From Candidatus Nomurabacteria bacterium RIFCSPHIGHO2_12_FULL_37_29 (GTDB lineage: Bacteria > Patescibacteriota > Minisyncoccia > Phycocordibacterales > UBA9973), in contig MFUJ01000016.1 of assembly GCA_001785675.1 (NCBI GenBank), positions 149-64,148 on the forward strand: DNA of 64,000 bases, in the 5' to 3' direction. The translations under genes were made by a program, and so were the position numbers. This document shows positions 25,028 through 45,924 of this stretch, one piece after another. The notes under the pieces were generated by a model. It was not told the origin of the DNA, searched no databases, and saw nothing but the letters and a program-made list of their open reading frames with translations. Position 1 is the stretch's first letter. Each line of letters starts with the position of its first letter.

Positions 25028-25402
25028 ATGAGAAATTTCGAACAAAAAAGAGGATGGAGAAACATTTTACAATCAAGACCTATTTTGGTTCTTTTGGGTA
25101 TTTTAGTGATAATTTTTGCTTATGGTGTTATTGGTTTTATGGGTAAAATACAAGTTACCAGAGAAAATAGAAAAATAGCCGAAAATAAGATTGCAGAATT
25201 AAAACAGGAAAAAGACAAGCTAACATTAGATATTGCTAAATTAAAAACGGATGAAGGGGTAGAAGAAAGCATCCGTGATAAATTTGGTTTAGCAAAAGAA
25301 GGAGAGGGTATGGTGGTAGTAGTGGAAAACAAAAATAAAATAGAAATACAAGATACAAAATCCGGAGGATTTTTCTCTTTTTTTCGAAACTTATTTAACT
25401 AA
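25028..25402 (+). CDS. septum formation initiator family protein (FtsB/DivIC-like)
   Basis: A single N-terminal TM helix followed by a coiled coil (KIAENKIAELKQEKDKLTLDIAKLKTDEG) and then FGLAKEGE. Confidence 0.55.
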   Translation: MRNFEQKRGWRNILQSRPILVLLGILVIIFAYGVIGFMGKIQVTRENRKIAENKIAELKQEKDKLTLDIAKLKTDEGVEESIRDKFGLAKEGEGMVVVVENKNKIEIQDTKSGGFFSFFRNLFN

Positions 25403-25443
25403 CTGGTGCGGGATGGGGTAATCGAGCCACTACATAGCCAGGT

Positions 25444-25476
25444 GCTTTTCCGCTGGTGCATGGAAAAGCCTTTTCG
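25444..25476 (+). terminator. rho-independent terminator after the ftsB-like gene
   Basis: 8-bp stem gcttttcc/ggaaaagc with a 10-nt loop, followed by CTTTTCG. A second hairpin, gcaagcaaa/tttgcttgc, lies at 25486-25507. Confidence 0.45.
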
Positions 25477-25551
25477 ATTCCCCACGCAAGCAAAGCAGTT
25501 TGCTTGCTATCCCTTACTTTGTGCGGGATGGGGTAATCGAAACCCCGTCTA

Positions 25552-25736
25552 ATCCTTGGGAAGGACTCATTCTACCACTAAACTAATCCCGCATGACTTA
25601 AATTTATCACAAAAACATCCTCGCAGACTTGGAAATACTCATTCTACCACTAAACTAATCCCGCAGTATGTAAATTTTTTCAACAACGATCCTTTAGACT
25701 TGGAAATACTCATTCTACCACTAAACTAATCCCGCA
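25552..25736. repeat. degenerate ~71-bp tandem repeat (3 copies), CRISPR-like in layout
   Basis: Two exact 40-bp copies of GACTTGGAAATACTCATTCTACCACTAAACTAATCCCGCA (25626-25665 and 25697-25736) plus a 5'-degenerate first copy ending at 25593. The 31-32-bp spacers resemble each other (taaattt..ca(a/c)aa.a.cgatcct). A 20-bp direct repeat gtgcgggatggggtaatcga also occurs at 25406-25425 and 25521-25540. Confidence 0.6.
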
Positions 25737-25817
25737 ATTATTTAAAATATATCCTTATTTGGCCTTTAGAGCAAGTATGATATAATACTAATATTATAAA
25801 TTATTCGTATTTTTTTT

Positions 25818-26051
25818 ATGAAGAATGTAACAATTTATTCGACCCCGTCCTGTCATTTTTGTCACATGGCGAAAGAATTTTTTAAAGCAAATAATATTTC
25901 CTACATTGAACACGATGTGGCAGGGGATGCTGAACAAAGGAAGATTATGATAGAAAAAAGCGGGCAAATGGGTGTGCCGGTCATAGTTATTGACGAAGAG
26001 CTTGTGGTGGGCTTTAATAAGCCTAAAATTATCCAATTGCTCGGACTTTAA
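25818..26051 (+). CDS. glutaredoxin-like protein (NrdH/Grx family)
   Basis: IYSTPSCHFCHMAKEFF contains a CxxC active site. 77 aa with a thioredoxin-fold layout. Confidence 0.7.
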   Translation: MKNVTIYSTPSCHFCHMAKEFFKANNISYIEHDVAGDAEQRKIMIEKSGQMGVPVIVIDEELVVGFNKPKIIQLLGL

Positions 26052-26082: not shown

Positions 26083-26157
26083 GCCCTCGTAGTTCAATGG
26101 ATAGAACAGTTCCGTCCTAAGGAATAGATGCACGTTCGATTCGTACCGAGGGCACCA
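26083..26157 (+). tRNA. tRNA-Arg (anticodon CCT)
   Basis: Cloverleaf: acceptor GCCCTCG/CGAGGGC, D-stem GTTC/GAAC, anticodon stem GTTCC/GGAAT with loop GTCCTAA (CCT), T-loop TTCGATT. CCA is encoded. Confidence 0.75.
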
Positions 26158-26196
26158 GAATTAGGTTTTAAAAAATTTTATGTTAAAATAATTTCT

Positions 26197-26919
26197 ATGA
26201 AGACAACACTTGAGACTGGTGAGCACGGAAGAAGAATTCCAAACCCAGAAAAGACAGGAGTGTTTCGACGTCTTAAAGAGTCAATAATATCTGGCAATTA
26301 CAATTTAAGAGAGTTAAAGGGTGCACTTACACAGGAGTCAATTACAGTAGCACAATATGCCGAACTAGCTTCTCTGCTTTTAGAAAAACTTGATAAGAGG
26401 GTTGAGATTGATGCCCTGACGGGTGTCTTTAGTCGCGCATCTTTAGAACTCAAACTAAATAGGTTGAAAGAAGAATTAAATTCTACTGAAGGGAGACGAA
26501 AATTACCTGTACAGTCAATTATGGTTATTTTTTTAGATATAAAAGAATTTAAAAAATTAAATGATACACATGGTCATCTAGCTGGTGATCAGGCATTGGT
26601 TGTCGCAGCAGAACGTTTTAAAGGGGTTACAAAGAGGGGCGATATGATATTTAGAGTGGGGGGTGATGAATTTCTAATAGTGTTACCCATAACAGACAAC
26701 AACCCTGATCTACTGCAGTCAATTTTTCAAAGGATTCAAGAGCAGATCAATACCAATTTATCTTTCAGTAAAATAGAACCTGATGGCAGTCAGAGTGAAA
26801 CTATTACTTTTTCTATTTCAATTGGACATGAAGTATTAAATAGGGGAGATGAGACAACAGTTAAAGAAATACTAAACAAAGCTGATCAAAAGATGTATCT
26901 AGATAAAAAAAGCCAATAA
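26197..26919 (+). CDS. GGDEF-domain diguanylate cyclase
   Basis: DALTGVFSR, HGHLAGDQAL and FRVGGDEFLIVLP. The start is moved from 26128 to the ATG at 26197, because the longer ORF overlaps tRNA-Arg. Confidence 0.7.
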   Translation: MKTTLETGEHGRRIPNPEKTGVFRRLKESIISGNYNLRELKGALTQESITVAQYAELASLLLEKLDKRVEIDALTGVFSRASLELKLNRLKEELNSTEGRRKLPVQSIMVIFLDIKEFKKLNDTHGHLAGDQALVVAAERFKGVTKRGDMIFRVGGDEFLIVLPITDNNPDLLQSIFQRIQEQINTNLSFSKIEPDGSQSETITFSISIGHEVLNRGDETTVKEILNKADQKMYLDKKSQ

Positions 26920-32386: not shown

Positions 32387-32448
32387 ATTCTTGGTTTATG
32401 TGTTTAATTATAATAAAAAACCTATCTTACAATTATACCACAATCTTA

Positions 32449-32467
32449 GTGCCGGGAGGGAGACTCG
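32449..32467 (-). repeat. 19-bp direct repeat duplicating the 3' end of tRNA-Leu(TAG)
   Basis: gtgccgggagggagactcg at 32449-32467 is identical to 32562-32580 (the tRNA 3' acceptor/T-arm), 94 bp away. Confidence 0.7.
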
Positions 32468-32562
32468 GTCACAGGTCTTTTTCTATTGAAAAAGCCTGCG
32501 ACCCCACCTCGACACGTCTGTCTCCGGCTTTCGAGTCAGCACAAATATATAACATATCTTTG

Positions 32563-32644
32563 TGCCGGGAGGGAGACTCGAACTCCCAAGGGTTGCCCCA
32601 CTAGTTCCTAAGACTAGCGCGTATACCAATTCCGCCATCCCGGC
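32563..32644 (-). tRNA. tRNA-Leu (anticodon TAG), type II
   Basis: Reverse complement folds as acceptor GCCGGGA/TCCCGGC, anticodon stem CTAGT/ACTAG with loop CTTAGGA, a long variable arm, and T-arm GGGAG-TTCGAGT-CTCCC. No encoded CCA. Confidence 0.75.
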
Positions 32645-32766
32645 AAAAATCAAACCGTTTCGCACAAAGTGCGTTAGCACTTTGTGCGCCTAATTGTAGC
32701 AAATTGGAACCTTATTTTCAATCAAATAAAGGGTTTTTCGTTTGTTTAGTAAAAAATTAAATTTTT

Positions 32767-33127
32767 ATGTTTGCCATTTACAGTTTATACATTTTATGTT
32801 ATAAGCTATTTGAAGGAGTCAAGATCTTGGGACAAAATTTCGCAGCGATGTGTTATGTGGCGGCCGCAGTCCGAGCTGGACAATTACCAGACAAAGATCG
32901 TACTGACGCCGAAATACAGGCGTTGTTCACGGCAAGTTGTCAGACCCTACCACCATGCCCCAAATGCAATCGGACAATGGTCAGTAGCGGGGGTCAATTT
33001 CACTGCACCGTTCACGGCGATCCGACGCTGTTACCCAACGAGGAAGTTAGTGACGAGGCGTGGATGGGAGCAGAACGTAACCGTCTATAATTCAAAAGGG
33101 TCGAGAGTCTCATACTCTCAAGGATAG
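32767..33127. other. GC-rich ~400-bp segment open in two overlapping + frames; candidate structured ncRNA or small Zn-ribbon protein
   Basis: About 50% GC against about 33% in the flanks. ORFs of 107 and 118 aa lie in frames +1 and +2 over the same DNA. The first contains CPKCNRTM...HCTVHG. Sits inside a minus-strand tRNA cluster. No RNase P, tmRNA or SRP core motifs found by eye. Confidence 0.3.
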
Positions 33128-33325
33128 CCAGACACACCGAAAGGAGGTAAGGTGCCTGGCTATTTTCAATTTCAACACAGAATGATTTTGTGGTCAGGAA
33201 TAATTTTGTTTTTGTCAAAACAAAATTTTCACGACCCTGCCTCGTCTATTTTTTCTGCTGAAAAAATATGACTCCGGCTCGCACAGCTAAAAAATCTACA
33301 GAAGTGCAGATTTTTCTTTACGCTG

Positions 33326-33398
33326 TGCGCCCAGTAGGGATCGAACCTACGACATTCTCCTTAAGAGGGAGCTACTCTACCAGCTGAGTTATGGGCGC
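33326..33398 (-). tRNA. tRNA-Lys (anticodon CTT)
   Basis: Reverse complement GCGCCCA-TA-ACTC-AGCTGGTAG-AGT...GCTCC-CTCTTAA-GGAGA...GTAGG-TTCGATC-CCTAC-TGGGCGC-A. 73 nt. Confidence 0.75.
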
Positions 33399-33508
33399 AT
33401 ATAATACATTTATCTTCTATCTTCTAATTTCAAACTACATTTACTAATATCTCGTCCTACCAAAACACTTATGGGCGCAAAAAATTTAATTTTCAAAAAA
33501 CTCTCAAG

Positions 33509-33590: not shown

Positions 33591-33607
33591 ATATTTATTT
33601 TGCCTGG

Positions 33608-33679
33608 AGGCCTGGGGCGGAATTGAACCGCCGTATATTCCTTTTGCAGAGGAATGCCTTACCACTTGGCTACCAGGCC
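33608..33679 (-). tRNA. tRNA-Cys (anticodon GCA)
   Basis: Reverse complement GGCCTGG-TA-GCC-AAGTGGTAA-GGC...TTCCT-CTGCAAA-AGGAA...GGCGG-TTCAATT-CCGCC-CCAGGCC-T. Discriminator U, as expected for Cys. 72 nt. Confidence 0.75.
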
Positions 33680-33720: not shown

Positions 33721-33776
33721 CCTCTGCGCAGAGGAATGGCATATTCGCTACGCTCACGCCACTTGGCTACCAGGCC
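33721..33776 (-). pseudogene. tRNA-Cys 5'-half-like fragment
   Basis: The reverse complement begins GGCCTGGTAGCCAAGTGG, identical to the first 18 nt of tRNA-Cys about 90 bp away. It then diverges into CGTGAGCGTAGCGAATATGCCATTCCTCTGCGCAGAGG and ends in the palindrome cctctgcgcagagg. No T-arm or acceptor 3' strand. Confidence 0.5.
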
Positions 33777-41158: not shown

Positions 41159-42874
41159 TTATTTTGTGTGGGTGCGAGAGCAATACCTCACCCAAGGTAG
41201 ACAAGCGTCGGTACTCAAGTGGTCAACGAGGGCAGACTGTAAATCTGCTGGCTTCGGCCTCCGAAGGTTCGAATCCTTCCCGGCGCACAACCTAGGACGA
41301 ATTGGTGCGAAAGCATCAGTTCGTCCTTGCGCGTTATGATTATTTTTCCGTTCCAACCGCTCAATTTCAGGCATGAGCTCTTTTTCGCCTTTTTTAAGCA
41401 CCGAGAACCAAGAATGCAGATCAATAAAGAGTTTTCTAGATTCTATCTGTTGGTTCAAACCTAAACTACTTAGGATCTCCCTTTGTATTTGTGTATCGCC
41501 CTTTTGTAAGGCTATACTCGCACAATATGCAAAATGAACAACATTTTCAGTAAGTTCAGTCCAATTCTTTGCGCGTGTTTCAACCTCAGACAATTTTATT
41601 TTTTCTTTCTTAAGTATTTCTTCGAGTTCATGTTTTTGAGTATTGTATTCTTCTCTCGTGATAGTGCCGTCAATAAGAAAACCAAGGATACGATCTAATT
41701 TCTTTTGACCCTCTTCAACATTCTTTAGATGGGTTTCGTAAATTTGCTGACGCGTGCCTGTCTCGGTCTCATGCATTTCTTTCAAAACTTCTAATCCCAA
41801 CTTATAAAACTTCGGATTAATGTGATTTGTCTCTATAAGACTTTGCACAGCAATCTCCAGCTCATCCAGTCGTATTGGTTTTTCTTTGCAATCAATATAT
41901 TTTCTGCGTTTAGTGCAATGATAATAAGTATGGTAGTTAATAGTTCCATCCTTCAAGATTTTGTGCTTTTTTGAAGCTGTAATACATGCTCCACAACCAC
42001 CGCATGTCATAAGACCAGTAAAGGGAAAATCATGCTTCTGTGGCCGAGGCCGGCCTTTCTTACCCATTAGCACTTGCACCCGATCAAATTCCTCCATAGA
42101 GATCATTTGTTCATGATTGCCTTTATAAAGTTGCTTGTTGTAGTAAAAGTTTCCAGTGAAAAATATATTGCTAAACAAAAGATACATATAGCTTATTGAT
42201 AGAGGTTTTCCACCTAGCTTCTTTCTATTCGGTGTTCGCAAACCTAATTCATCAGTCGCTATCTGTAATATTTTTGGGATTGTATAATTTCCTGTGAGCA
42301 TTAAGTCCCACATCTTACGAACAATTAGGAAGCGTTCTCTATCGGTAATTATCGTCTCGTTTCCTTTTTCATGAGTTTTTGAATTTAGATATCCAATGGG
42401 CGGAATATTAGGGAACCATCCTTTTTCTGCCTTCGATCTCATTCCTCGTTTTACATTTGTAGATAAATCACGAATATACTGACTAGACATTCCACTTTCG
42501 ACTGACATTATGATGGCGTTGTCTTCCGGAAAATAATTCTTTTCTGGGGTCTTAATACAAAGTAATTTTTTCTTCTCCAAAAAATATTGTACTGCTCCAT
42601 TGTCTATAGCATTTCTACCGAGCCTATCCATTTTCCACACCAGAAGACCATTAATTTTCCCTTGCTCAACTAATTTCATGAGTTCAGTGAACCCATCTCG
42701 CTTGTATGGCTCTTTCGCAGATTTTGCTTCTTGGATTATTTGAACAACCTTGAGATCTTCTCGGTTTGCTAATACTTTTAGATTATTAATTTGATCGTTA
42801 ATGGATTGGATTTGTCGATCAGACGACTCAGTTGATTTTCTGGCGTATATTGCCCATCTAATATTTTTATCCAT
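41159..42874 (-). CDS. large serine recombinase (resolvase/invertase N-domain + recombinase domain + zinc ribbon); 3' end reads antisense through tRNA-Tyr
   Basis: MDKNIRWAIYARKSTESSDRQIQSINDQI carries the catalytic Ser in the YARKST context. Recombinase domain and a CGGCGAC...C zinc ribbon follow. The last ~45 codons are antisense to tRNA-Tyr (41205-41287). Confidence 0.75.
   Translation of the reverse strand: MDKNIRWAIYARKSTESSDRQIQSINDQINNLKVLANREDLKVVQIIQEAKSAKEPYKRDGFTELMKLVEQGKINGLLVWKMDRLGRNAIDNGAVQYFLEKKKLLCIKTPEKNYFPEDNAIIMSVESGMSSQYIRDLSTNVKRGMRSKAEKGWFPNIPPIGYLNSKTHEKGNETIITDRERFLIVRKMWDLMLTGNYTIPKILQIATDELGLRTPNRKKLGGKPLSISYMYLLFSNIFFTGNFYYNKQLYKGNHEQMISMEEFDRVQVLMGKKGRPRPQKHDFPFTGLMTCGGCGACITASKKHKILKDGTINYHTYYHCTKRRKYIDCKEKPIRLDELEIAVQSLIETNHINPKFYKLGLEVLKEMHETETGTRQQIYETHLKNVEEGQKKLDRILGFLIDGTITREEYNTQKHELEEILKKEKIKLSEVETRAKNWTELTENVVHFAYCASIALQKGDTQIQREILSSLGLNQQIESRKLFIDLHSWFSVLKKGEKELMPEIERLERKNNHNAQGRTDAFAPIRPRLCAGKDSNLRRPKPADLQSALVDHLSTDACLPWVRYCSRTHTK
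41205..41287 (+). tRNA. tRNA-Tyr (anticodon GTA), type II
   Basis: Acceptor GCGTCGG/CCGGCGC (one G-U pair), D-stem CTC/GAG, anticodon stem GCAGA/TCTGC with loop CTGTAAA, long variable arm GGCTTCGGCCTCC, T-arm GAAGG-TTCGAAT-CCTTC. No encoded CCA. Confidence 0.75.
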
Positions 42875-43017
42875 ATATTTTTTGTCCCAAAAAAGGGGCA
42901 ATAGTTAAGATCCTGTAATCGCTAAACCACAAGACCACTATTACCCCTTTTCTGGATTGAAAATATGGAATCTTATTGTCTCGTGGTTTAGCTTATTAAT
43001 TATATCATGTTTTAAAG

Positions 43018-45225
43018 TTAGAAAGGCAATTCCTCTGGAGGAAGAGGATCTTTCTTTGGAGGATTAATCTCATTATCGATATCTGAATTTACCCCACCCT
43101 CTTCACCACTATATTTTTCGCTTCGCTCACTTTCAGTTTCGAGAGGAATAACGACCATTTCCCTCATATCATCTACACTTTTTTCTTGAAAAATAAGGCC
43201 GACCCCCTCTAGCTGAGGCAAAATTTGATGTCTAAGTTTCTGTGTACCGAGTGGCGTTTTATATACCTGAAAATATTTCTTGAGGATTTCTTTTCTAGTT
43301 ATGGATTTTTTCTTGTCAGCGTTATCTGAAAATTCTCCAAAAGTGTCGCTTGGCTCGTTCCAAAGGGTCATAATAACTTTCGTATAAATATCAAACAAGT
43401 AAGGAGCTAGCCCATAATCCTGTCCGCAGTATATAACTTGCCAGAGATCAAATGCTTCCTCTATATCCTTCTCTGAAGCCCATATGTAATCACCATCGCG
43501 CTTTCTAAACCATATATTAAGCATGGCAAAACCTTTTATTATCGATATTATTTTTTTAATATCCCGTTGCTGTCTTGGTCTTGCACTTTCCACATCTTTT
43601 AAGTAAAGCTTTTCTATATATTCAATATTCTCGATTTTTACATCAATAATATTTTCTTGTTTTATTCCAAGAATTCTCTTTTTAAGCAAGTTTCTCCGAG
43701 GATCTGAATTTACTTCTTGATTAAATTTTTCACTATCTGAGTTTTTTCGTATGGCTTGTTTTACGCCTTGATATATTTTTTCCCGTTCGATTGACGGACT
43801 AAGCATTAAAAATCTAGTGCTTTCTTGTTCATCAACTCTCATTTCAGCACTACAGAAGTAAACGCTCGGGAATCCTATCAATACAATATTCTTTGTTTTA
43901 TTGCCTCCCTTCTGCGCCTTGTCTGTTATTTTTAATCGCGATTCTTTTTGATCATGTGAGAGAACAGGACGCAGTCTTGAAATTAATGCTTGATCTGGCA
44001 TATCGGTAAAGATTATTATTTTTCTTGCTAGATCAACTACAATTTCATTTTTTTCTTTATTATATTTACCTTGTTCATGAAAAAAAGCTGTAGGTGAACA
44101 ATACGCAAGAGTTATTACATCTTCTTGTGGAAAAAGTTCAACAACTGATAATGGTATATGTGATTTTCCAGTAGAGCTAGGTGCGTTAAAGAAAAGATTC
44201 ATTTGTGCATCCTCTGTGTATGTCGTAAGCATAGATAGAAATGCAACTGATTTATTGCCATCATCTTTTTTTATAGTAGAATCCAGAATCTCACAAACTT
44301 CTTTAATACTAATTTCTTTAAATTCAGAAGTGTCCACTTTTTCTGGAAATGGTTTTGCATATTTAGTAAATAAATCTTCTATGGGTAGACCTAGATGAAT
44401 TATATAATCTCCAAGGTCGCCCTTATTACCAACTTCTTCTGGGAGCGTAATTATATTTATTTTTTCACAGCCAGCGTTAAATAACGCATTGGCCAGTTTA
44501 TTTGATCCATTCTTGCCGACATCATCATTGTCATAGCAAATAAAATATTCAAGTTCGGGTTTAAAATGTTCAAACCACAACTCGTCAATTGTCATCGCTC
44601 CATGAGTATTGGTAATACAAGTTATCCCATGTGATTTCATAAGAAGGGCATCCATCTCACCTTCAGCGATCAAAACCCTGTCTTTGGCCATTATGAGGCT
44701 TTCCCAGTCATAGATTTGTGCTTCTATGCCGTTCGGCCAAGTCATTTTTTTATCCCCATATTTAGGGTCTTGGCGTAGCTTAAGGAAGCTGTAATTACCA
44801 TTCAAATCTTTAATAGGTATAGCTATCCACCAAGTTCCGTATTCGGAAATATACCCAACTTTATATTGGCTTATTCTATCGTCTGTAATACCTCTCTTGT
44901 TAAGATAATTAATAATCTCGGGAGTGAGAGCTTTGTGATACTTTTCGACCAATAAAGGTGTAAGTGTTCTTTTATTAACTTTCGGTTTTTCTTCTTTGGG
45001 AGTGAAGGGGTCGTTGAAGTGTTTTTTAAGAGTAAGGATATTTCCTTTGGCATCACACTTTTTACAATGATATTGACCAGTTTTTCTACTAAAATATAGA
45101 TGCGCCTCATTCTCTCGGCTATCCGAATCACAATTGGAAAAAAAACATTTTACAATAATCTCTTCATTAGTAATGCGAATAAACTTTATTGCCTTATCAT
45201 CTAGATATTTTTCTATGTCGCTCAT
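43018..45225 (-). CDS. primase-helicase-like replication protein (Zn-finger + Toprim primase + P-loop NTPase)
   Basis: N-terminal CHC2-like zinc finger (CFFSNC...HLYF...YHCKKC). Toprim motifs LIAEGEMDAL and ICYDNDDVGKNG. Walker A NAPSSTGKSH. Confidence 0.65.
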   Translation of the reverse strand: MSDIEKYLDDKAIKFIRITNEEIIVKCFFSNCDSDSRENEAHLYFSRKTGQYHCKKCDAKGNILTLKKHFNDPFTPKEEKPKVNKRTLTPLLVEKYHKALTPEIINYLNKRGITDDRISQYKVGYISEYGTWWIAIPIKDLNGNYSFLKLRQDPKYGDKKMTWPNGIEAQIYDWESLIMAKDRVLIAEGEMDALLMKSHGITCITNTHGAMTIDELWFEHFKPELEYFICYDNDDVGKNGSNKLANALFNAGCEKINIITLPEEVGNKGDLGDYIIHLGLPIEDLFTKYAKPFPEKVDTSEFKEISIKEVCEILDSTIKKDDGNKSVAFLSMLTTYTEDAQMNLFFNAPSSTGKSHIPLSVVELFPQEDVITLAYCSPTAFFHEQGKYNKEKNEIVVDLARKIIIFTDMPDQALISRLRPVLSHDQKESRLKITDKAQKGGNKTKNIVLIGFPSVYFCSAEMRVDEQESTRFLMLSPSIEREKIYQGVKQAIRKNSDSEKFNQEVNSDPRRNLLKKRILGIKQENIIDVKIENIEYIEKLYLKDVESARPRQQRDIKKIISIIKGFAMLNIWFRKRDGDYIWASEKDIEEAFDLWQVIYCGQDYGLAPYLFDIYTKVIMTLWNEPSDTFGEFSDNADKKKSITRKEILKKYFQVYKTPLGTQKLRHQILPQLEGVGLIFQEKSVDDMREMVVIPLETESERSEKYSGEEGGVNSDIDNEINPPKKDPLPPEELPF

Positions 45226-45924
45226 AAATTTTTGTTGTTAAATTGATAAACTGCTTCTAATAAACACACAAGCGAAGTCAGCTCAACTCGAGCTTGAGCC
45301 TTGTCAATTGGTTGACCATACTCTTCGAGATAGATGGCCACATATTTTTCTATTTGCTTCTCGGTAATTGGCATAAATAGAAAATCCACTTTTGGCTTGG
45401 CAGGCTACTGAGCAAGCGACCTGCAAACCCAAAAATGGATTTATTAGTGCTCAGTATTTACTGCCAAACAAAACAACCGCACTTCATAATGCGGTTTATG
45501 AAAGCAAAAAGCTGCCGTCATATTCCATGTCATCATGAAATAAAACGGCAGCCTCTCGATTTTTCCTGCCCAGTGAGATTCCTAGTCTCTTGTACAACCT
45601 TCTGTCTTAGAGAAGGCGCTCCGATTTACCGGAGAGGTGTGCATATATAATAATGCTAAAAAAATTCAAGTCAAATGAGGGGTGTTAATAAGTTTAAGAA
45701 AAAAAGTAAGATGTGATAAGATGTTGTTATAACTTAATAAGAAAGACCTAACCCTTATAGCGATATGAGATATGGTCAAAAGACCCATGGAAGACACTGA
45801 ACCCCTCGTTCAGCAACTCTTCCATGGGCTATACAGGGAAACTTGTATAGGGTCGTAAGACCTAGCTGGCGTGGGGTTCTGTGTTTTTCCGCGCTAGCTT
45901 ATTATCAGCTAGCTTTTTATTTTT

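What the first reader, a model, noticed from the sequence alone, without database searches (positions are those of the whole stretch)
25403..25740. CRISPR-like but degenerate tandem repeat between ftsB-like and glutaredoxin genes, with inverted TGCGGGAT boxes
Three copies of a 40-bp unit are separated by 31-32-bp spacers and each ends in atcccgca. Upstream, two 20-bp copies of gtgcgggatggggtaatcga contain the reverse complement, tgcgggat. The 8-mer and its complement thus occur five times in 340 bp, in opposing orientations. The spacers resemble each other and no cas genes are nearby. The repeat therefore looks more like a decayed satellite or minisatellite, or a set of protein-binding sites (for example partition or iteron-type sites), than an adaptive array.
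Basis: seen in the sequence. Interest (0 to 1): 0.5.

Follow-up and report, generated by a model that had tools for sequence, protein, structure and literature searches.

The report
tRNA-Gly gene flanked by self-copies
The "CRISPR-like repeat" is a glycine tRNA gene on the opposite strand surrounded by partial copies of itself, and the copy of its 3' end belongs to a widespread, apparently undescribed structured element that follows tRNA and tmRNA genes in Nomurabacteria and related uncultured bacteria.

Summary
The region holds a tRNA-Gly(CCC) gene on the minus strand (25521-25592).

- **The "40-bp unit" x3** is the tRNA's 5' half: the real gene plus two pseudo-copies in its leader. They form a 71-72-nt tandem duplication that has one more unit in one other assembly.
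- **The "20-bp unit" x2** is the tRNA's 3' end. One copy is the real one. The other terminates a 115-nt element (25406-25520), here called D.
- **The inverted TGCGGGAT/ATCCCGCA boxes** are the two strands of the acceptor stem.

D is the interesting part. About 110 homologues were found in metagenome contigs. Where the upstream sequence could be read they sit directly 3' of a tRNA or tmRNA gene on the same strand, and most end in a copy of the local tRNA's last 19 nt (27 of 65 exact).

D folds into a tRNA-like stem plus three hairpins. Covariation is strong (92% of cells paired; 27 of 33 pairs change on both sides). Intermediates are G·U on the tRNA-sense strand.

D is absent from Rfam 15 and from 2.9 million viral contigs. 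Relatives with a near-identical (1-nt different) tRNA have clean empty sites.

Its function is inferred, not shown. Most likely it is a co-transcribed tRNA-like trailer RNA. The main rival is a miniature element that integrates at the T-loop.

The parts
25521..25592 (-). tRNA-Gly(CCC) gene. CCA is not encoded; the gene ends ...GCA C. This is the real gene from which all the repeats derive.
   Evidence: ARAGORN. Rfam RF00005 scores 63 bits, E 2.7e-11. Near-identical genes occur in relatives L196, L258 and L257.
25406..25520 (-). D element, subtype A: a 115-nt tRNA-like structured element directly 3' of the tRNA.

- Linker and P1 5' strand: 25509-25513 (GGGAT)
- Hairpin H1: 25486-25507
- P2 5' strand (anti-T arm): 25474-25483
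- Hairpin H2: 25444-25469
- Hairpin H3: 25426-25438
- Terminal copy of the tRNA 3' end: 25406-25425
   Evidence: Covariance model R1 scores 100 bits, E 5e-21. The fold has z = -3.7. Covariation was counted over 32 and over 101 distinct homologues.
25406..25425 (-). Exact 20-nt copy of the tRNA 3' end (T55/C56 to C74).
25594..25665 (-). Leader repeat unit c2 (72 nt). It is a pseudo 5' half of the tRNA (nt 1-28 exact, then ATTTCCAAGTCT) plus a 31-nt AT-rich spacer that abuts the real tRNA.
   Evidence: On its own it is not more structured than shuffles (z = +1.2).
25666..25736 (-). Leader repeat unit c3 (71 nt): a pseudo 5' half plus spacer. It is the outermost copy and abuts the ancestral leader. 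This unit is exactly duplicated in assembly L006.
25737..25817 (-). Ancestral 81-nt tRNA-Gly leader. It aligns with the leaders of relatives L258 and L196.
   Evidence: Alignments and sequences.
25793..25822 (-). Sigma-70-like site TTCATA-18-TATAAT, straddling the upstream end of the leader and running into the divergent glutaredoxin gene start.
   Evidence: Promoter scan: a consensus match only, and the number of such sites in the scanned region is no higher than in shuffles.
32446..32561 (-). Second family member in the window: D element subtype B, directly 3' of tRNA-Leu(TAG) (32562-32644). It ends in an exact 19-nt copy of that tRNA's 3' end (32449-32467).
   Evidence: The fold has z = -4.5. 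R1 scores 18 bits, E 0.05. It is 90% identical over 67 nt to the Saccharibacteria locus L022 and 75% over 112 nt to its orthologue in L239.
33721..33776 (-). Pseudo 5' part of tRNA-Cys, upstream of the real tRNA-Cys (33605-33679). The first 18 nt are exact, and the D-loop is replaced by a GAGCGTAGCGAA hairpin. It is conserved in L199 and L233.
33451..33478 (-). Pseudo 5' part of tRNA-Lys, upstream of the real tRNA-Lys (33325-33398). It is conserved in L019, where it covaries with that tRNA's 5' end (GCG versus GCA).

Best explanation
**What is there (shown).** The region is a tRNA-Gly(CCC) gene on the minus strand embedded in partial copies of itself.

**(1) The leader repeats.** A 71-72-nt segment, made of the last ~30 nt of the leader plus tRNA nt 1 to ~41, was duplicated in tandem.
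- The primary transcript region now reads: leader, pseudo-5'-half, spacer, pseudo-5'-half, spacer, tRNA.
- The array is a lineage-specific, unstable minisatellite. It has 3 five-prime halves here and 4 in one other assembly. Relatives have none.

**(2) The D element.** Directly 3' of the tRNA lies a 115-nt element, D.
- Its last 20 nt repeat the tRNA's 3' end.
- Internal segments copy the acceptor and T-stem 5' strands. They are therefore complementary to that 3' end.
- D folds into a tRNA-like acceptor/T coaxial stem. Hairpin H1 stands in place of the D and anticodon arms. Hairpins H2 and H3 stand in place of the T-loop.
- D belongs to a large family attached to tRNA and tmRNA genes, seen in two named Nomurabacteria genomes and many unclassified metagenome contigs.

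**How it most likely works (inferred).**
- D is co-transcribed with the tRNA. The linker is only 7-15 nt, too short for a promoter.
- Its antisense arm could in principle invade the tRNA's 3' end. Instead it is kept paired with D's own terminal copy, so both the tRNA and D fold independently.
- D is then a self-contained tRNA-like RNA. tRNA-processing endonucleases could cut it from the tRNA (RNase Z at the tRNA discriminator, RNase P at P1). It may act as a trailer, punctuation or insulator module, or as a stable small RNA.
- D is dispensable. It is gained, lost or tandemly amplified through its 19-nt flanking repeats.
For: **tRNA identity.**. The repeats map to tRNA nt 1-28 and 53-72.

**Leader array.**
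- Period 71-72.
- Assembly L006 carries an exact extra copy of the outer unit.
- The ancestral leader abuts the outermost copy and aligns with the relatives' leaders.
- Relatives L196 and L258 have no such repeats.

**D family.**
- Of these, 92 lie within ~250 nt downstream of a tRNA of about 20 anticodon types. In 55 the exact 12-19-nt tRNA 3' copy follows at a fixed offset.
- Among 65 distinct pairs, 27 copies match 19/19 and 10 match 18/19.
- D also follows tmRNA-like 3' ends, identified by eye.

**Structure.**
- 92.5% of cells pair, against 78% in shuffles and 37-52% in slid controls. 20 of 33 pairs covary in 32 sequences.
- In 101 distinct sequences 92.4% pair and 27 of 33 pairs covary.
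- Intermediates are sense-strand G·U. One pair reads UA49/UG25/CG24/other 2. Another reads GC64/AU17/GU12/UA1/other 2.

**Model specificity.** R1 gives one hit, the true one, in 888 kb of mostly unrelated genomic loci.

**Purifying selection.** The D core is largely identical outside the linker and the H2 apex, with compensatory H3 changes, between this genome and L196. Their DivIC proteins are about 61% identical and their Grx 74%. The leader is barely alignable.

**Arms track the tRNA.** Both the copy and its partner strand differ between orthologous subtype-B elements of the window and L239, matching each tRNA's acceptor stem. All P1 and P2 pairs covary.

**Not phage-borne.** Four pattern scans of viral contigs returned 0 hits.

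**Not in Rfam 15.**
Against: - No expression data exist. Co-transcription, processing and any RNA function are inferred.
- The distribution is patchy. An identical or near-identical tRNA-Gly(CCC) has no D in L258 and L257. tRNA-Leu(TAG) carries subtype B here and in L239, subtype A in L233 and L137, and nothing in L019. An essential processing signal would not be expected to vary like this.
- Tandem A-A and A-B arrays occur, and many terminal copies have decayed in their acceptor part. Both look like successive insertions of different ages.
- The duplicated segment runs from mid-T-loop to the gene end. This is the segment duplicated by integrases that target the T-loop (PMC3146451).
- Some variants carry a hairpin followed by a T-run between the tRNA and D. 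This may stop co-transcription.
- The D set was gathered with a pattern that fixes the H2 stem. Conservation of H2 and of the ACCTGG junction is therefore partly ascertainment.
- The predicted minimum-energy fold of tRNA plus D pairs the tRNA 5' strand with the distal copy. The 'independent folding' picture is therefore not unique.
- For the leader array, the 41-nt tRNA-like part is identical between units while the spacers are only about 60% alike. Simple neutral duplication does not explain this. Gene conversion or selection must be invoked.
Confidence: 0.6

Rival explanations
1. D plus its 19-20-nt repeat is a miniature integrated element. It would be a cis-mobilizable or non-autonomous element, or a scar, left by a recombinase that inserts into the T-loop of tRNA and tmRNA genes while carrying a replacement 3' end. 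Candidates are a large serine recombinase of the DsiB/CcrB type, a tyrosine integrase, or a single-strand transposase. The hairpins would be recognition structures in single-stranded DNA or RNA of the element. Tandem arrays would be successive insertions.
For: - The repeat runs from mid-T-loop to the gene end. This matches the 20-bp ssrA repeats of the Dehalococcoides ssrA islands, which also form tandem arrays (PMC3146451).
- Partial tRNA genes generally arise from integration of mobile elements (PMC9897764).
- The targets are tRNA and tmRNA genes.
- Clean filled and empty sites occur at identical or near-identical tRNAs.
- Subtype A and subtype B occupy the same tRNA in different lineages, and also occur in tandem.
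- Terminal copies range from perfect to decayed.
- In Saccharibacteria locus L022, two long D-like repeats flank a 6.6-kb defence island.
- This very window has a large serine recombinase whose 3' end overlaps tRNA-Tyr on the other strand. That is the DsiB/attL layout.
Against: - The body is 95 nt with no ORF. That is too small for a double-stranded circle.
- Four pattern scans of 2.9 million viral contigs found no D.
- No integrase lies next to any D examined.
- The internal arms, interleaved with the conserved core, match the local tRNA and covary with it. A hopping element could not bring them along, and a target-site duplication cannot create them.
- The core is conserved between lineages whose neutral DNA is scrambled. 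A passive scar would have decayed.
- Covariation intermediates are G·U on the sense strand. Double-stranded att sites do not predict this.
Confidence: 0.27
2. One reading: the repeats are protein-binding sites, such as iterons, partition sites or operator arrays. The TGCGGGAT boxes would be the recognition motif.
For: The 8-mer is clustered, 5 of 7 window occurrences falling in 330 bp, and it occurs in both orientations.
Against: - Every box lies inside a tRNA acceptor-stem strand or a copy of one.
- No rep or par genes are nearby.
- In homologous elements next to other tRNAs the 'box' changes to that tRNA's own acceptor sequence. No constant DNA motif exists for a protein to read.
Confidence: 0.02
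3. A degenerate orphan CRISPR array or a TIGR guide-RNA array.
For: Three direct repeats of about 40 nt are separated by spacers of about 31 nt. The host clade, Parcubacteria, is known to carry TIGR-Tas systems (PMC12045711).
Against: - The repeat is the 5' half of an adjacent functional tRNA.
- The spacers are paralogous to each other and to the leader.
- No cas or Nop-domain gene was found among the 30 ORFs scanned.
- TIGR units are 36 nt, with alternating 8-12-nt repeats next to a tas gene.
- The array is absent from close relatives.
Confidence: 0.01
4. Everything is neutral debris. Slippage or illegitimate recombination at a highly transcribed, structured gene in a repair-poor small genome would produce it, with no function and no dedicated mobility mechanism.
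For: - The leader array behaves like a minisatellite, with copy-number variation by exact unit duplication.
- Partial 5' copies are found upstream of about 3% of tRNAs in related contigs.
- Assemblies break at these repeats.
Against: - It cannot explain a 75-nt non-tRNA core shared by more than 100 elements next to about 20 different tRNA species, with compensatory substitutions.
- It cannot explain conservation of D across lineages with about 61% identical DivIC proteins.
- It may still hold for the leader array alone.
Confidence: 0.1

Closest known systems
Partial tRNA/tmRNA gene copies (attL/attR) left by integrative elements. Example: the Dehalococcoides ssrA genomic islands, with a 20-bp repeat from mid-T-loop to the gene end (PMC3146451; PMC9897764; Williams 2002 from memory).
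   Same: - One complete gene plus a direct repeat of its 3' part, starting in the T-loop.
- Both tRNA and tmRNA genes are targeted.
- Tandem arrays occur.
- Relatives have empty sites.
   Different: - Only 95 nt lie between the repeats, with no integrase or cargo.
- That DNA is a conserved, covarying, strand-specific structure.
- Its internal arms match the local tRNA.
- It is not found in viral contigs.
tRNA-like structures used as processing or stability signals: plant mitochondrial t-elements, the MALAT1 mascRNA, viral 3' tRNA-like structures, and the bacterial tRNA-like Y RNA YrlA (all from my own knowledge).
   Same: - An acceptor/T-stem mimic sits next to or inside a longer transcript.
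- It is plausibly recognised by RNase P, RNase Z or the CCA-adding enzyme.
   Different: - D has no T-loop. It is replaced by two hairpins.
- In some variants the acceptor end is fully paired.
- Each copy is customised to the tRNA it follows.
- Processing has not been tested.
REPIN/RAYT systems and other small structured multicopy elements such as MITEs.
   Same: - About 100-nt hairpin-rich, multicopy, intergenic units.
- Patchy presence among relatives.
- A RAYT-like Y1 transposase exists in a related Nomurabacteria genome, inserted in the tRNA-Gly leader.
   Different: - That RAYT is flanked by a different palindrome (TGTTAAACACYSRGTGTTTAACA), which is absent from the window.
- Nearly all D elements whose upstream sequence could be read sit at the 3' end of a tRNA or tmRNA gene, in one orientation, rather than scattered through intergenic DNA.
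- D carries tRNA-specific arms.
CRISPR arrays
   Same: Direct repeats of about 40 nt are spaced by about 31 nt.
   Different: - The repeat is half of a tRNA gene.
- The spacers are paralogous.
- There are only 3-4 units.
- No cas genes were found.
- The array is absent from close relatives.
Group I introns in Patescibacteria tRNA genes (PMC13011429).
   Same: Same bacterial group, and structured RNA insertions associated with tRNA genes.
   Different: - Those introns sit at position 35/36 in the anticodon loop, are more than 200 nt long and match the Rfam intron models.
- D lies after a complete tRNA, is 95 nt long and has no Rfam hit.

Membership tests
tRNA gene (Rfam RF00005) | Cloverleaf covariance-model score above the gathering threshold, with an anticodon call | tested here: met
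   63 bits against a gathering score of 29. ARAGORN calls tRNA-Gly(ccc) at 25521-25592 on the minus strand.
CRISPR array | Near-identical direct repeats of 23-50 nt at regular spacing | tested here: met
   Three copies with 28-41 nt identical, spaced 71-72 nt.
CRISPR array | Spacers unique and unrelated to each other | tested here: not met
   The spacers are diverged copies of each other and of the leader tail.
CRISPR array | cas genes, or other arrays with the same repeat, in the genome | tested here: inconclusive
   None among the 30 window ORFs scanned with Pfam, including all long ORFs from 19.4 to 45.2 kb. The rest of the genome was not available.
CRISPR array | The repeat is not part of another gene | tested here: not met
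   The repeat equals nt 1-28(41) of tRNA-Gly(CCC).
Tandem duplication / minisatellite (leader array) | Head-to-tail units derived from contiguous ancestral sequence | tested here: met
   Tandem Repeats Finder gives period 71, score 258. Each unit is a leader tail plus a 5' half. The ancestral leader lies next to the outermost copy.
Tandem duplication / minisatellite (leader array) | Copy-number variation between strains or relatives | tested here: met
   L006 has four 5' halves, the extra unit being exact. Nine other assemblies have three. L196 and L258 have one. An assembly artefact in L006 cannot be excluded.
att-site duplication by an integrative element | Direct repeat equal to the 3' part of the tRNA or tmRNA gene, with the complete gene at one end | tested here: met
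   20/20 nt here. In the family census 27 of 65 are 19/19.
att-site duplication by an integrative element | An integrase and cargo lie between the repeats | tested here: not met
   The intervening 95 nt hold no ORF.
att-site duplication by an integrative element | Empty site in relatives | tested here: met
   L258 and L257 carry an identical or near-identical tRNA without D.
att-site duplication by an integrative element | The element, or its attP, is found on phages, plasmids or as a free form | tested here: not met
   Four pattern scans of the IMG/VR viral contigs gave 0 hits. Plasmids were not searched.
Conserved structured RNA family (Rfam-type motif): D element | Many homologues with conserved sequence blocks | tested here: met
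   113 hits at E below 1e-5, 101 of them distinct. Only one hit, the true one, in 888 kb of mostly unrelated genomic loci.
Conserved structured RNA family (Rfam-type motif): D element | Compensatory base-pair covariation above controls | tested here: met
   92.4% of cells pair, against 76% in shuffles and 40-62% in slid controls. 27 of 33 pairs covary. 0 of 500 shuffles reach the observed values. The alignment is model-fitted. The independent MAFFT alignment gives the same picture.
Conserved structured RNA family (Rfam-type motif): D element | Strand specificity: G·U rather than A·C intermediates, and a fixed orientation relative to the tRNA | tested here: met
   One pair reads UA49/UG25/CG24/other 2. 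Another reads GC64/AU17/GU12/UA1/other 2. Overall there are 125 G·T against 73 A·C cells. All D elements lie on the tRNA strand.
Conserved structured RNA family (Rfam-type motif): D element | The element is transcribed or processed as RNA | not testable with these tools
   No transcriptome data were available.
Conserved structured RNA family (Rfam-type motif): D element | Already catalogued as a family | tested here: not met
   No Rfam 15 hit at E up to 10 over 25300-25900, nor in L019, L022 or L085. Five full-text literature searches found no description.
Iteron / partition-site array | A constant DNA motif next to rep or par genes or an origin | tested here: not met
   The neighbours are lepA, divIC, grx and a GGDEF protein. 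The 'motif' changes with the tRNA in homologous elements.
TIGR array | 36-nt units with alternating 8-12-nt repeats and dual spacers, next to a Nop-domain tas gene | tested here: not met
   The unit is 71-72 nt and no Nop-domain gene was found. Criteria are taken from PMC12045711.
REP/REPIN-RAYT | A RAYT gene flanked by the repeated unit, with units dispersed in intergenic DNA | tested here: not met
   The only RAYT-like gene seen (L262) is flanked by a different palindrome. D occurs at the 3' ends of tRNA and tmRNA genes.

The most novel reading that the evidence does not exclude
D would be a new class of tRNA-templated genetic element. It would be a small RNA (or single-stranded DNA) module that carries both a sense copy and an antisense copy of its host tRNA's last 19 nt.

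It would use that three-way complementarity actively, in one of two ways:
- as a guide for homing into the T-loop of the cognate tRNA or tmRNA gene, a self-targeting mobile element that needs no encoded protein of its own;
- or as a switch in which the antisense arm toggles between the real tRNA 3' end and the decoy, to control tRNA maturation or availability.

The upstream 5'-half modules share hairpin modules with D (L239). They would be the 5'-side counterpart of the same system.
Probability: 0.2. Interest if true: 0.85.

Novelty: new variant of a known kind. Interest (0 to 1): 0.62.

Why it matters
- **Annotation.** Repeat finders and readers can mistake partial tRNA copies on the opposite strand for CRISPR-like arrays. 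Assemblies of these genomes break at such copies.
- **Biology.** Nomurabacteria-type genomes are small, yet they carry several copies per contig of a conserved, covarying, about 115-nt tRNA-like element. The element is customised to each host tRNA or tmRNA and is in neither Rfam 15 nor the searchable literature.
- **If it is a processed RNA**, it adds a new class of tRNA-linked non-coding RNA and a possible 3'-processing or punctuation mechanism in organisms with reduced RNase sets.
- **If it is mobile**, it is an unusually small element that targets the T-loop. Its arms co-evolve with the target, which bears on how tRNA genes serve as integration sites.
- **Either way**, covariance model R1 and alignment A3 give a direct handle for genome-wide and transcriptome tests.

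Tried and rejected
1. **CRISPR or TIGR array: rejected.** See the membership table.
2. **Iteron or partition sites: rejected.** The boxes are acceptor-stem strands.
3. **Known RNA family for D: none.** Rfam gave nothing at gathering thresholds or at E up to 10. By eye the junction order does not fit a hammerhead. The H2 apex is a tandem G·A hairpin, not a k-turn with a 3-nt bulge.
4. **Group I intron (PMC13011429): rejected.** Different position, size and models.
5. **tmRNA: rejected.** ARAGORN finds none in the window.
6. **Phage attP origin: not supported.** Four viral-contig scans were empty.
7. **REPIN/RAYT: not supported.** The RAYT-like gene in L262 is flanked by another palindrome, which is absent from the window.
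8. **A wasted scan.** My first genome contigs pattern (GTGGGGN{0,2}TCGN{1,3}AGGCTTTT) was too loose. Only L019, L022 and L085, plus the source genome itself (L114), were informative.
9. **Integrase in the L022 island: none.** It holds GmrSD, an EcoRI methylase and AbiE. One 334-aa ORF has no family hit.
10. **Strain-level polymorphism of the tRNA-Leu D element: none.** Seven assemblies are identical.
11. **Repeat of the tRNA-Tyr 3' end that would delimit the serine-recombinase element: not found in the window**.
12. **Promoters in the spacers of the leader array: none.** The consensus scan found none there, so the 'tandem promoter' idea is unsupported.
Full report
**1.

- Three units lie at 25559-25764, spaced 72 and 71 nt.
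- Two exact 20-mers lie at 25406-25425 and 25521-25540.
- TGCGGGAT or its complement occurs 7 times in the window, five of them inside 25407-25736. Shuffles expect 1.19.
- The neighbours are a DivIC/FtsB-type gene and a glutaredoxin gene.

**2. What the repeats are.**

ARAGORN and Rfam both place a tRNA-Gly(CCC) gene on the minus strand at 25521-25592. Read on that strand, the pieces fall into place.
- The '40-bp unit' is the tRNA's 5' half. Nucleotides 1-28 are exact in all three copies.
- The '20-bp unit' is its 3' end, nt 53-72 plus one.
- The inverted 8-mers are the two strands of the acceptor stem, each extended by one flanking base.

The locus reads 5' to 3' on the minus strand as follows:

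| Segment | Coordinates |
|---|---|
| 81-nt leader | 25817-25737 |
| Pseudo-5'-half plus spacer (c3) | 25736-25666 |
| Pseudo-5'-half plus spacer (c2) | 25665-25594 |
| tRNA | 25592-25521 |
| 95-nt body | 25520-25426 |
| 20-nt copy of the tRNA 3' end | 25425-25406 |
| divIC stop codon | three bases further on |

**3. Source organism.**

The contig is MFUT01000015.1 of GCA_001785785.1, named Candidatus Nomurabacteria bacterium RIFCSPHIGHO2_02_FULL_37_4x. The same locus occurs in many Rifle groundwater assemblies.

**4. The leader array.**

- In nine other assemblies the divIC-grx spacer is identical to the window. In one (L006) it is 71 nt longer, because the outermost unit is exactly duplicated. 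Another contig ends inside the array.
- Relatives with the same synteny show the ancestral state.
  - L258 (another Nomurabacteria; DivIC 67% and Grx 78% identical) has divIC, a tRNA-Gly(CCC) differing by 1 nt, an ~80-nt leader and grx. It has no extra 5' halves.
  - L196 (DivIC about 61%, Grx 74%) also has none.
- The window's 81-nt leader aligns with those leaders and abuts the outermost pseudo-copy. The two spacers are weakly similar to its last ~30 nt.
- This is what a tandem duplication of the segment 'leader tail plus tRNA nt 1 to ~41' produces. The downstream copy stays complete.
- One feature is unexplained. The 41-nt tRNA-like part is identical between c2 and c3, while their spacers are only about 60% alike. 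Gene conversion or selection must act on the tRNA-like part.
- The units are not structured on their own (z = +1.2 and +1.6). The consensus scan finds no promoter in the spacers. It does find a TTCATA-18-TATAAT site at the upstream end of the leader, where L196 and L258 read TGTAAT in place of TATAAT. That is a consensus match only, and such sites are no commoner in this stretch than in shuffles. If it is the promoter, the pseudo-halves are probably part of the pre-tRNA leader (inference).

**5. The same thing happens at other tRNAs.**

A blastn search of each window tRNA against the window showed three more cases.
- tRNA-Leu(TAG) has an exact 19-nt copy of its 3' end, starting 94 nt downstream.
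- tRNA-Cys has a pseudo 5' part upstream.
- tRNA-Lys also has a pseudo 5' part upstream.

The 5' pseudo-copies recur in related contigs.
- The tRNA-Cys copy is found in L199 and L233.
- The tRNA-Lys copy is found in L019, where it changes GCG to GCA together with the tRNA.
- tRNA-Pro copies are found in L161, L214 and L219.

**6. The D element.**

The 95-nt bodies downstream of tRNA-Gly and tRNA-Leu share a core and are strongly structured (z = -3.7 and -4.5). Database searches gave the following.
- A loose genome-contig scan, mostly chance hits, recovered a Nomurabacteria locus (L019). There an element about 85% identical to D-Gly by eye follows tRNA-Leu(TAA) and ends in that tRNA's own 3' end.
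- About a dozen hits are chance matches in what looks like unrelated sequence. Of the 119, 92 lie within about 250 nt downstream of a tRNA. Another 11 had too little upstream sequence to tell.
- The host tRNAs are Pro (38), Gly (29), Leu (12), Lys (4), Arg (3), Cys (2), and His, Trp, Gln and Glu (1 each).
- In 55 hits an exact 12-19-nt copy of the local tRNA 3' end follows at a fixed offset.
- In four loci D follows what reads by eye as a tmRNA 3' end (...GCGGGTTCGATTCCCGCCATCTCCACA). Its arms there are complementary to that end.
- Many contigs hold 2-4 copies, including direct tandems. One pair of tandem copies differs by a compensatory change in H1.

**7. Anatomy and structure.**

On the tRNA strand the order is:
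1. the tRNA;
2. a linker, whose P1 5' strand is a partial copy of the acceptor 5' strand;
3. hairpin H1;
4. the P2 5' strand, which starts with the local T-stem 5' strand and continues as the complement of the T-loop's 3' half;
5. the junction GAAA;
6. hairpin H2 (GGCUUUUC...GAAAAGC, with a variable apex that often carries a tandem-G·A hairpin);
7. the junction ACCUG;
8. hairpin H3;
9. the 19-nt copy (C56-C74), which pairs back to P2 and P1.

D is therefore a tRNA-like acceptor/T coaxial stem. H1 replaces the D and anticodon arms. H2 and H3 replace the T-loop.

The covariation counts are as follows.
- On a MAFFT alignment of 32 elements, 92.5% of cells pair. Shuffles give 78% and slid controls 37-52%. 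Twenty of 33 pairs change on both sides.
- On 101 distinct model-aligned elements the figures are 92.4% and 27 of 33.
- Transitional states are G·U on the sense strand, not A·C. One pair reads UA49/UG25/CG24/other 2. Another reads GC64/AU17/GU12/UA1/other 2. The structure is therefore selected on the strand that is transcribed with the tRNA.

Covariance model R1 scores D-Gly at 100 bits and D-Leu at 18 bits (E 0.05) in the window. In 888 kb of mostly unrelated genomic loci it finds only the one true element.

Caveat: the search pattern fixes the H2 stem and the ACCUGG junction. Their invariance is therefore partly ascertainment.

**8. Evolutionary behaviour.**

- *Constraint.* Between the window and L196 the D core is largely identical outside the linker and the H2 apex, with compensatory H3 changes, although the leader is barely alignable.
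- *Arms track the tRNA.* All P1 and P2 pairs covary. The orthologous subtype-B elements after tRNA-Leu(TAG) in the window and in L239 are 75% identical in body. Both the terminal copy and its partner strand have changed to match each tRNA's acceptor stem.
- *Patchiness.*
  - An identical or near-identical tRNA-Gly(CCC) has D here and in L196 but a clean empty site in L258 and L257.
  - tRNA-Leu(TAA) has D in L019, L199 and L239 but not here.
  - tRNA-Leu(TAG) has subtype B here and in L239, subtype A in L233 and L137, and nothing in L019.
- *Copy decay.* Of 65 distinct tRNA/D pairs, 27 copies are 19/19 and 10 are 18/19. The rest have decayed, mainly in the acceptor part, while the T part that forms P2 is kept. 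In L210 the tRNA has changed and the copy has not.
- *Not viral.* Four pattern scans of 2.9 million viral contigs gave nothing.
- *Shared modules.* In L239 a module upstream of tRNA-Leu(TAA) combines the tRNA's 5' strand with an H1-like hairpin and a tandem-G·A hairpin. The upstream and downstream modules therefore share parts.

**9. Mechanism.**

*Shown:*
- the tRNA gene;
- the derivation of every repeat from it;
- the tandem nature and instability of the leader array;
- the existence, architecture, strand-specific covariation, conservation and patchy distribution of the D family.

*Inferred:*
- D is co-transcribed, because the linker is only 7-15 nt.
- Its antisense arm is kept paired with its own terminal copy, so the tRNA and D fold independently.
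- D is released by tRNA-processing enzymes as a tRNA-like RNA, with a trailer or punctuation role or an as yet unknown role.
- It is gained, lost and amplified through the flanking 19-nt repeats.

I put this at about 0.6.

The main rival, at about 0.27, is a miniature element or scar that integrates at the T-loop. The duplicated segment is the one produced by the Dehalococcoides ssrA islands (PMC3146451). The window itself has a large serine recombinase overlapping tRNA-Tyr in the DsiB/attL manner.

Against that rival:
- D is too small;
- no recombinase lies next to it;
- its internal arms match the tRNA;
- it is conserved;
- the G·U pattern points to a single strand.

The two views are not exclusive. 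D could be a selfish element whose structure is needed at the RNA or single-strand stage.

Folding the tRNA plus D together gives a minimum-energy structure in which the tRNA 5' strand pairs with the distal copy. The alternative pairings are close in energy, and only probing can settle which forms.

**10. Comparison with known things and novelty.**

Partial tRNA genes next to complete ones are well known as integration scars (PMC9897764). tRNA-like processing signals are also known, though that point rests on my own knowledge. D shares features with both but fails defining tests of each.
- It has no integrase or cargo between its repeats.
- It has no T-loop.
- It has no Rfam 15 match.
- Five full-text literature searches found no description.
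- The one paper on tRNA-associated structured insertions in this clade concerns group I introns at position 35/36.

I therefore rate it a new variant of a known kind: tRNA-derived or tRNA-like elements at tRNA gene ends. There is about a 0.2 chance that it is something categorically new, namely a self-guided homing element or a three-way RNA switch.

**11. Verdict.**

- The finding as written, a CRISPR-like or iteron-like array, is explained and ordinary at its core: a tRNA gene read on the wrong strand, with a local minisatellite.
- Its 3' box, however, leads to a large, well-supported and apparently uncatalogued family of structured elements.
- Named genomes carrying subtype A are two Nomurabacteria: this one and L019.
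- Subtype-B-like elements occur in a Saccharibacteria MAG (L022, by BLAST).
- A similar architecture appears in a Doudnabacteria MAG (L085, by eye only).
- The metagenome contigs are taxonomically unassigned. A claim that the family is widespread across the whole radiation is therefore provisional.

Noticed in passing
window 41159-45863: The 3' end of a large serine recombinase ORF (41159-42901, minus strand) overlaps tRNA-Tyr (41205-41288, plus strand) on the opposite strand. It is followed by a Toprim-domain protein (43018-45225, minus) and a LOOT RNA (45745-45863, RF03000, 80.7 bits). The layout matches the DsiB integrase overlapping attL at ssrA in Dehalococcoides islands. It is probably an element integrated at tRNA-Tyr. 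No repeat of the tRNA-Tyr 3' end was found in the window.
   Followed up: partly
window 32446-32561 (-): A second D-type element (subtype B) lies directly 3' of tRNA-Leu(TAG). It ends in an exact 19-nt copy of that tRNA's 3' end. It is 90% identical over 67 nt to repeats in a Saccharibacteria MAG.
   Followed up: yes
window 33721-33776 (-) and 33451-33478 (-): Pseudo 5' parts of tRNA-Cys and tRNA-Lys lie 97 and 80 nt upstream of the real genes. Both are conserved in related contigs. The Cys copy carries a tandem-G·A hairpin (GAGCGTAGCGAA) in place of the D-loop. The same module caps H2 in many D elements.
   Followed up: partly
window 32645-33324: About 680 nt separate tRNA-Lys from tRNA-Leu(TAG). 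In relatives L019 and L239 these two genes are only 3-40 nt apart. The insert holds an ORF (32767-33090, plus strand, 107 aa) with no Pfam hit and a fragment resembling subtype B around 33258-33322 (R1 8.4 bits, not significant).
   Followed up: no
L262 7498-8242 (related Nomurabacteria, GCA_001787085.1): A 221-aa Y1 transposase hits the REP-associated tyrosine transposase model weakly (E 1.4e-7). Two copies of the palindrome TGTTAAACACYSRGTGTTTAACA flank it and a third lies inside the gene. It is inserted in the leader of the orthologous tRNA-Gly(CCC). The palindrome is absent from the window.
   Followed up: partly
L022 363-7520 (Saccharibacteria MAG CAYTAR010000005.1): Two ~260-nt direct repeats, each a long D-like module with the subtype-B core, flank a 6.6-kb defence island next to tRNA-Asn. 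The island holds GmrSD, an EcoRI-type methylase, an AbiEi/AbiEii pair and an SDH-type protease. No integrase was recognised.
   Followed up: partly
window 26083-26157 / 26128-26919: The longest ORF of the GGDEF protein overlaps tRNA-Arg(CCT). Other assemblies call the gene from 26197 (240 aa), which is the more likely start.
   Followed up: no
window 46704-49380: A Ser/Thr protein kinase (46704-48725, plus strand) and an AbiEi-like antitoxin-domain protein (48712-49380, minus strand) lie just beyond the putative tRNA-Tyr element. They may be part of the same island.
   Followed up: no
L252-L255 (other assemblies of the same organism): Contigs start or end exactly at the tRNA-Cys pseudo-copy, at tRNA-Lys and at tRNA-Leu(TAG), and L004 ends inside the tRNA-Gly leader array. 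These partial tRNA repeats appear to break short-read assemblies.
   Followed up: yes
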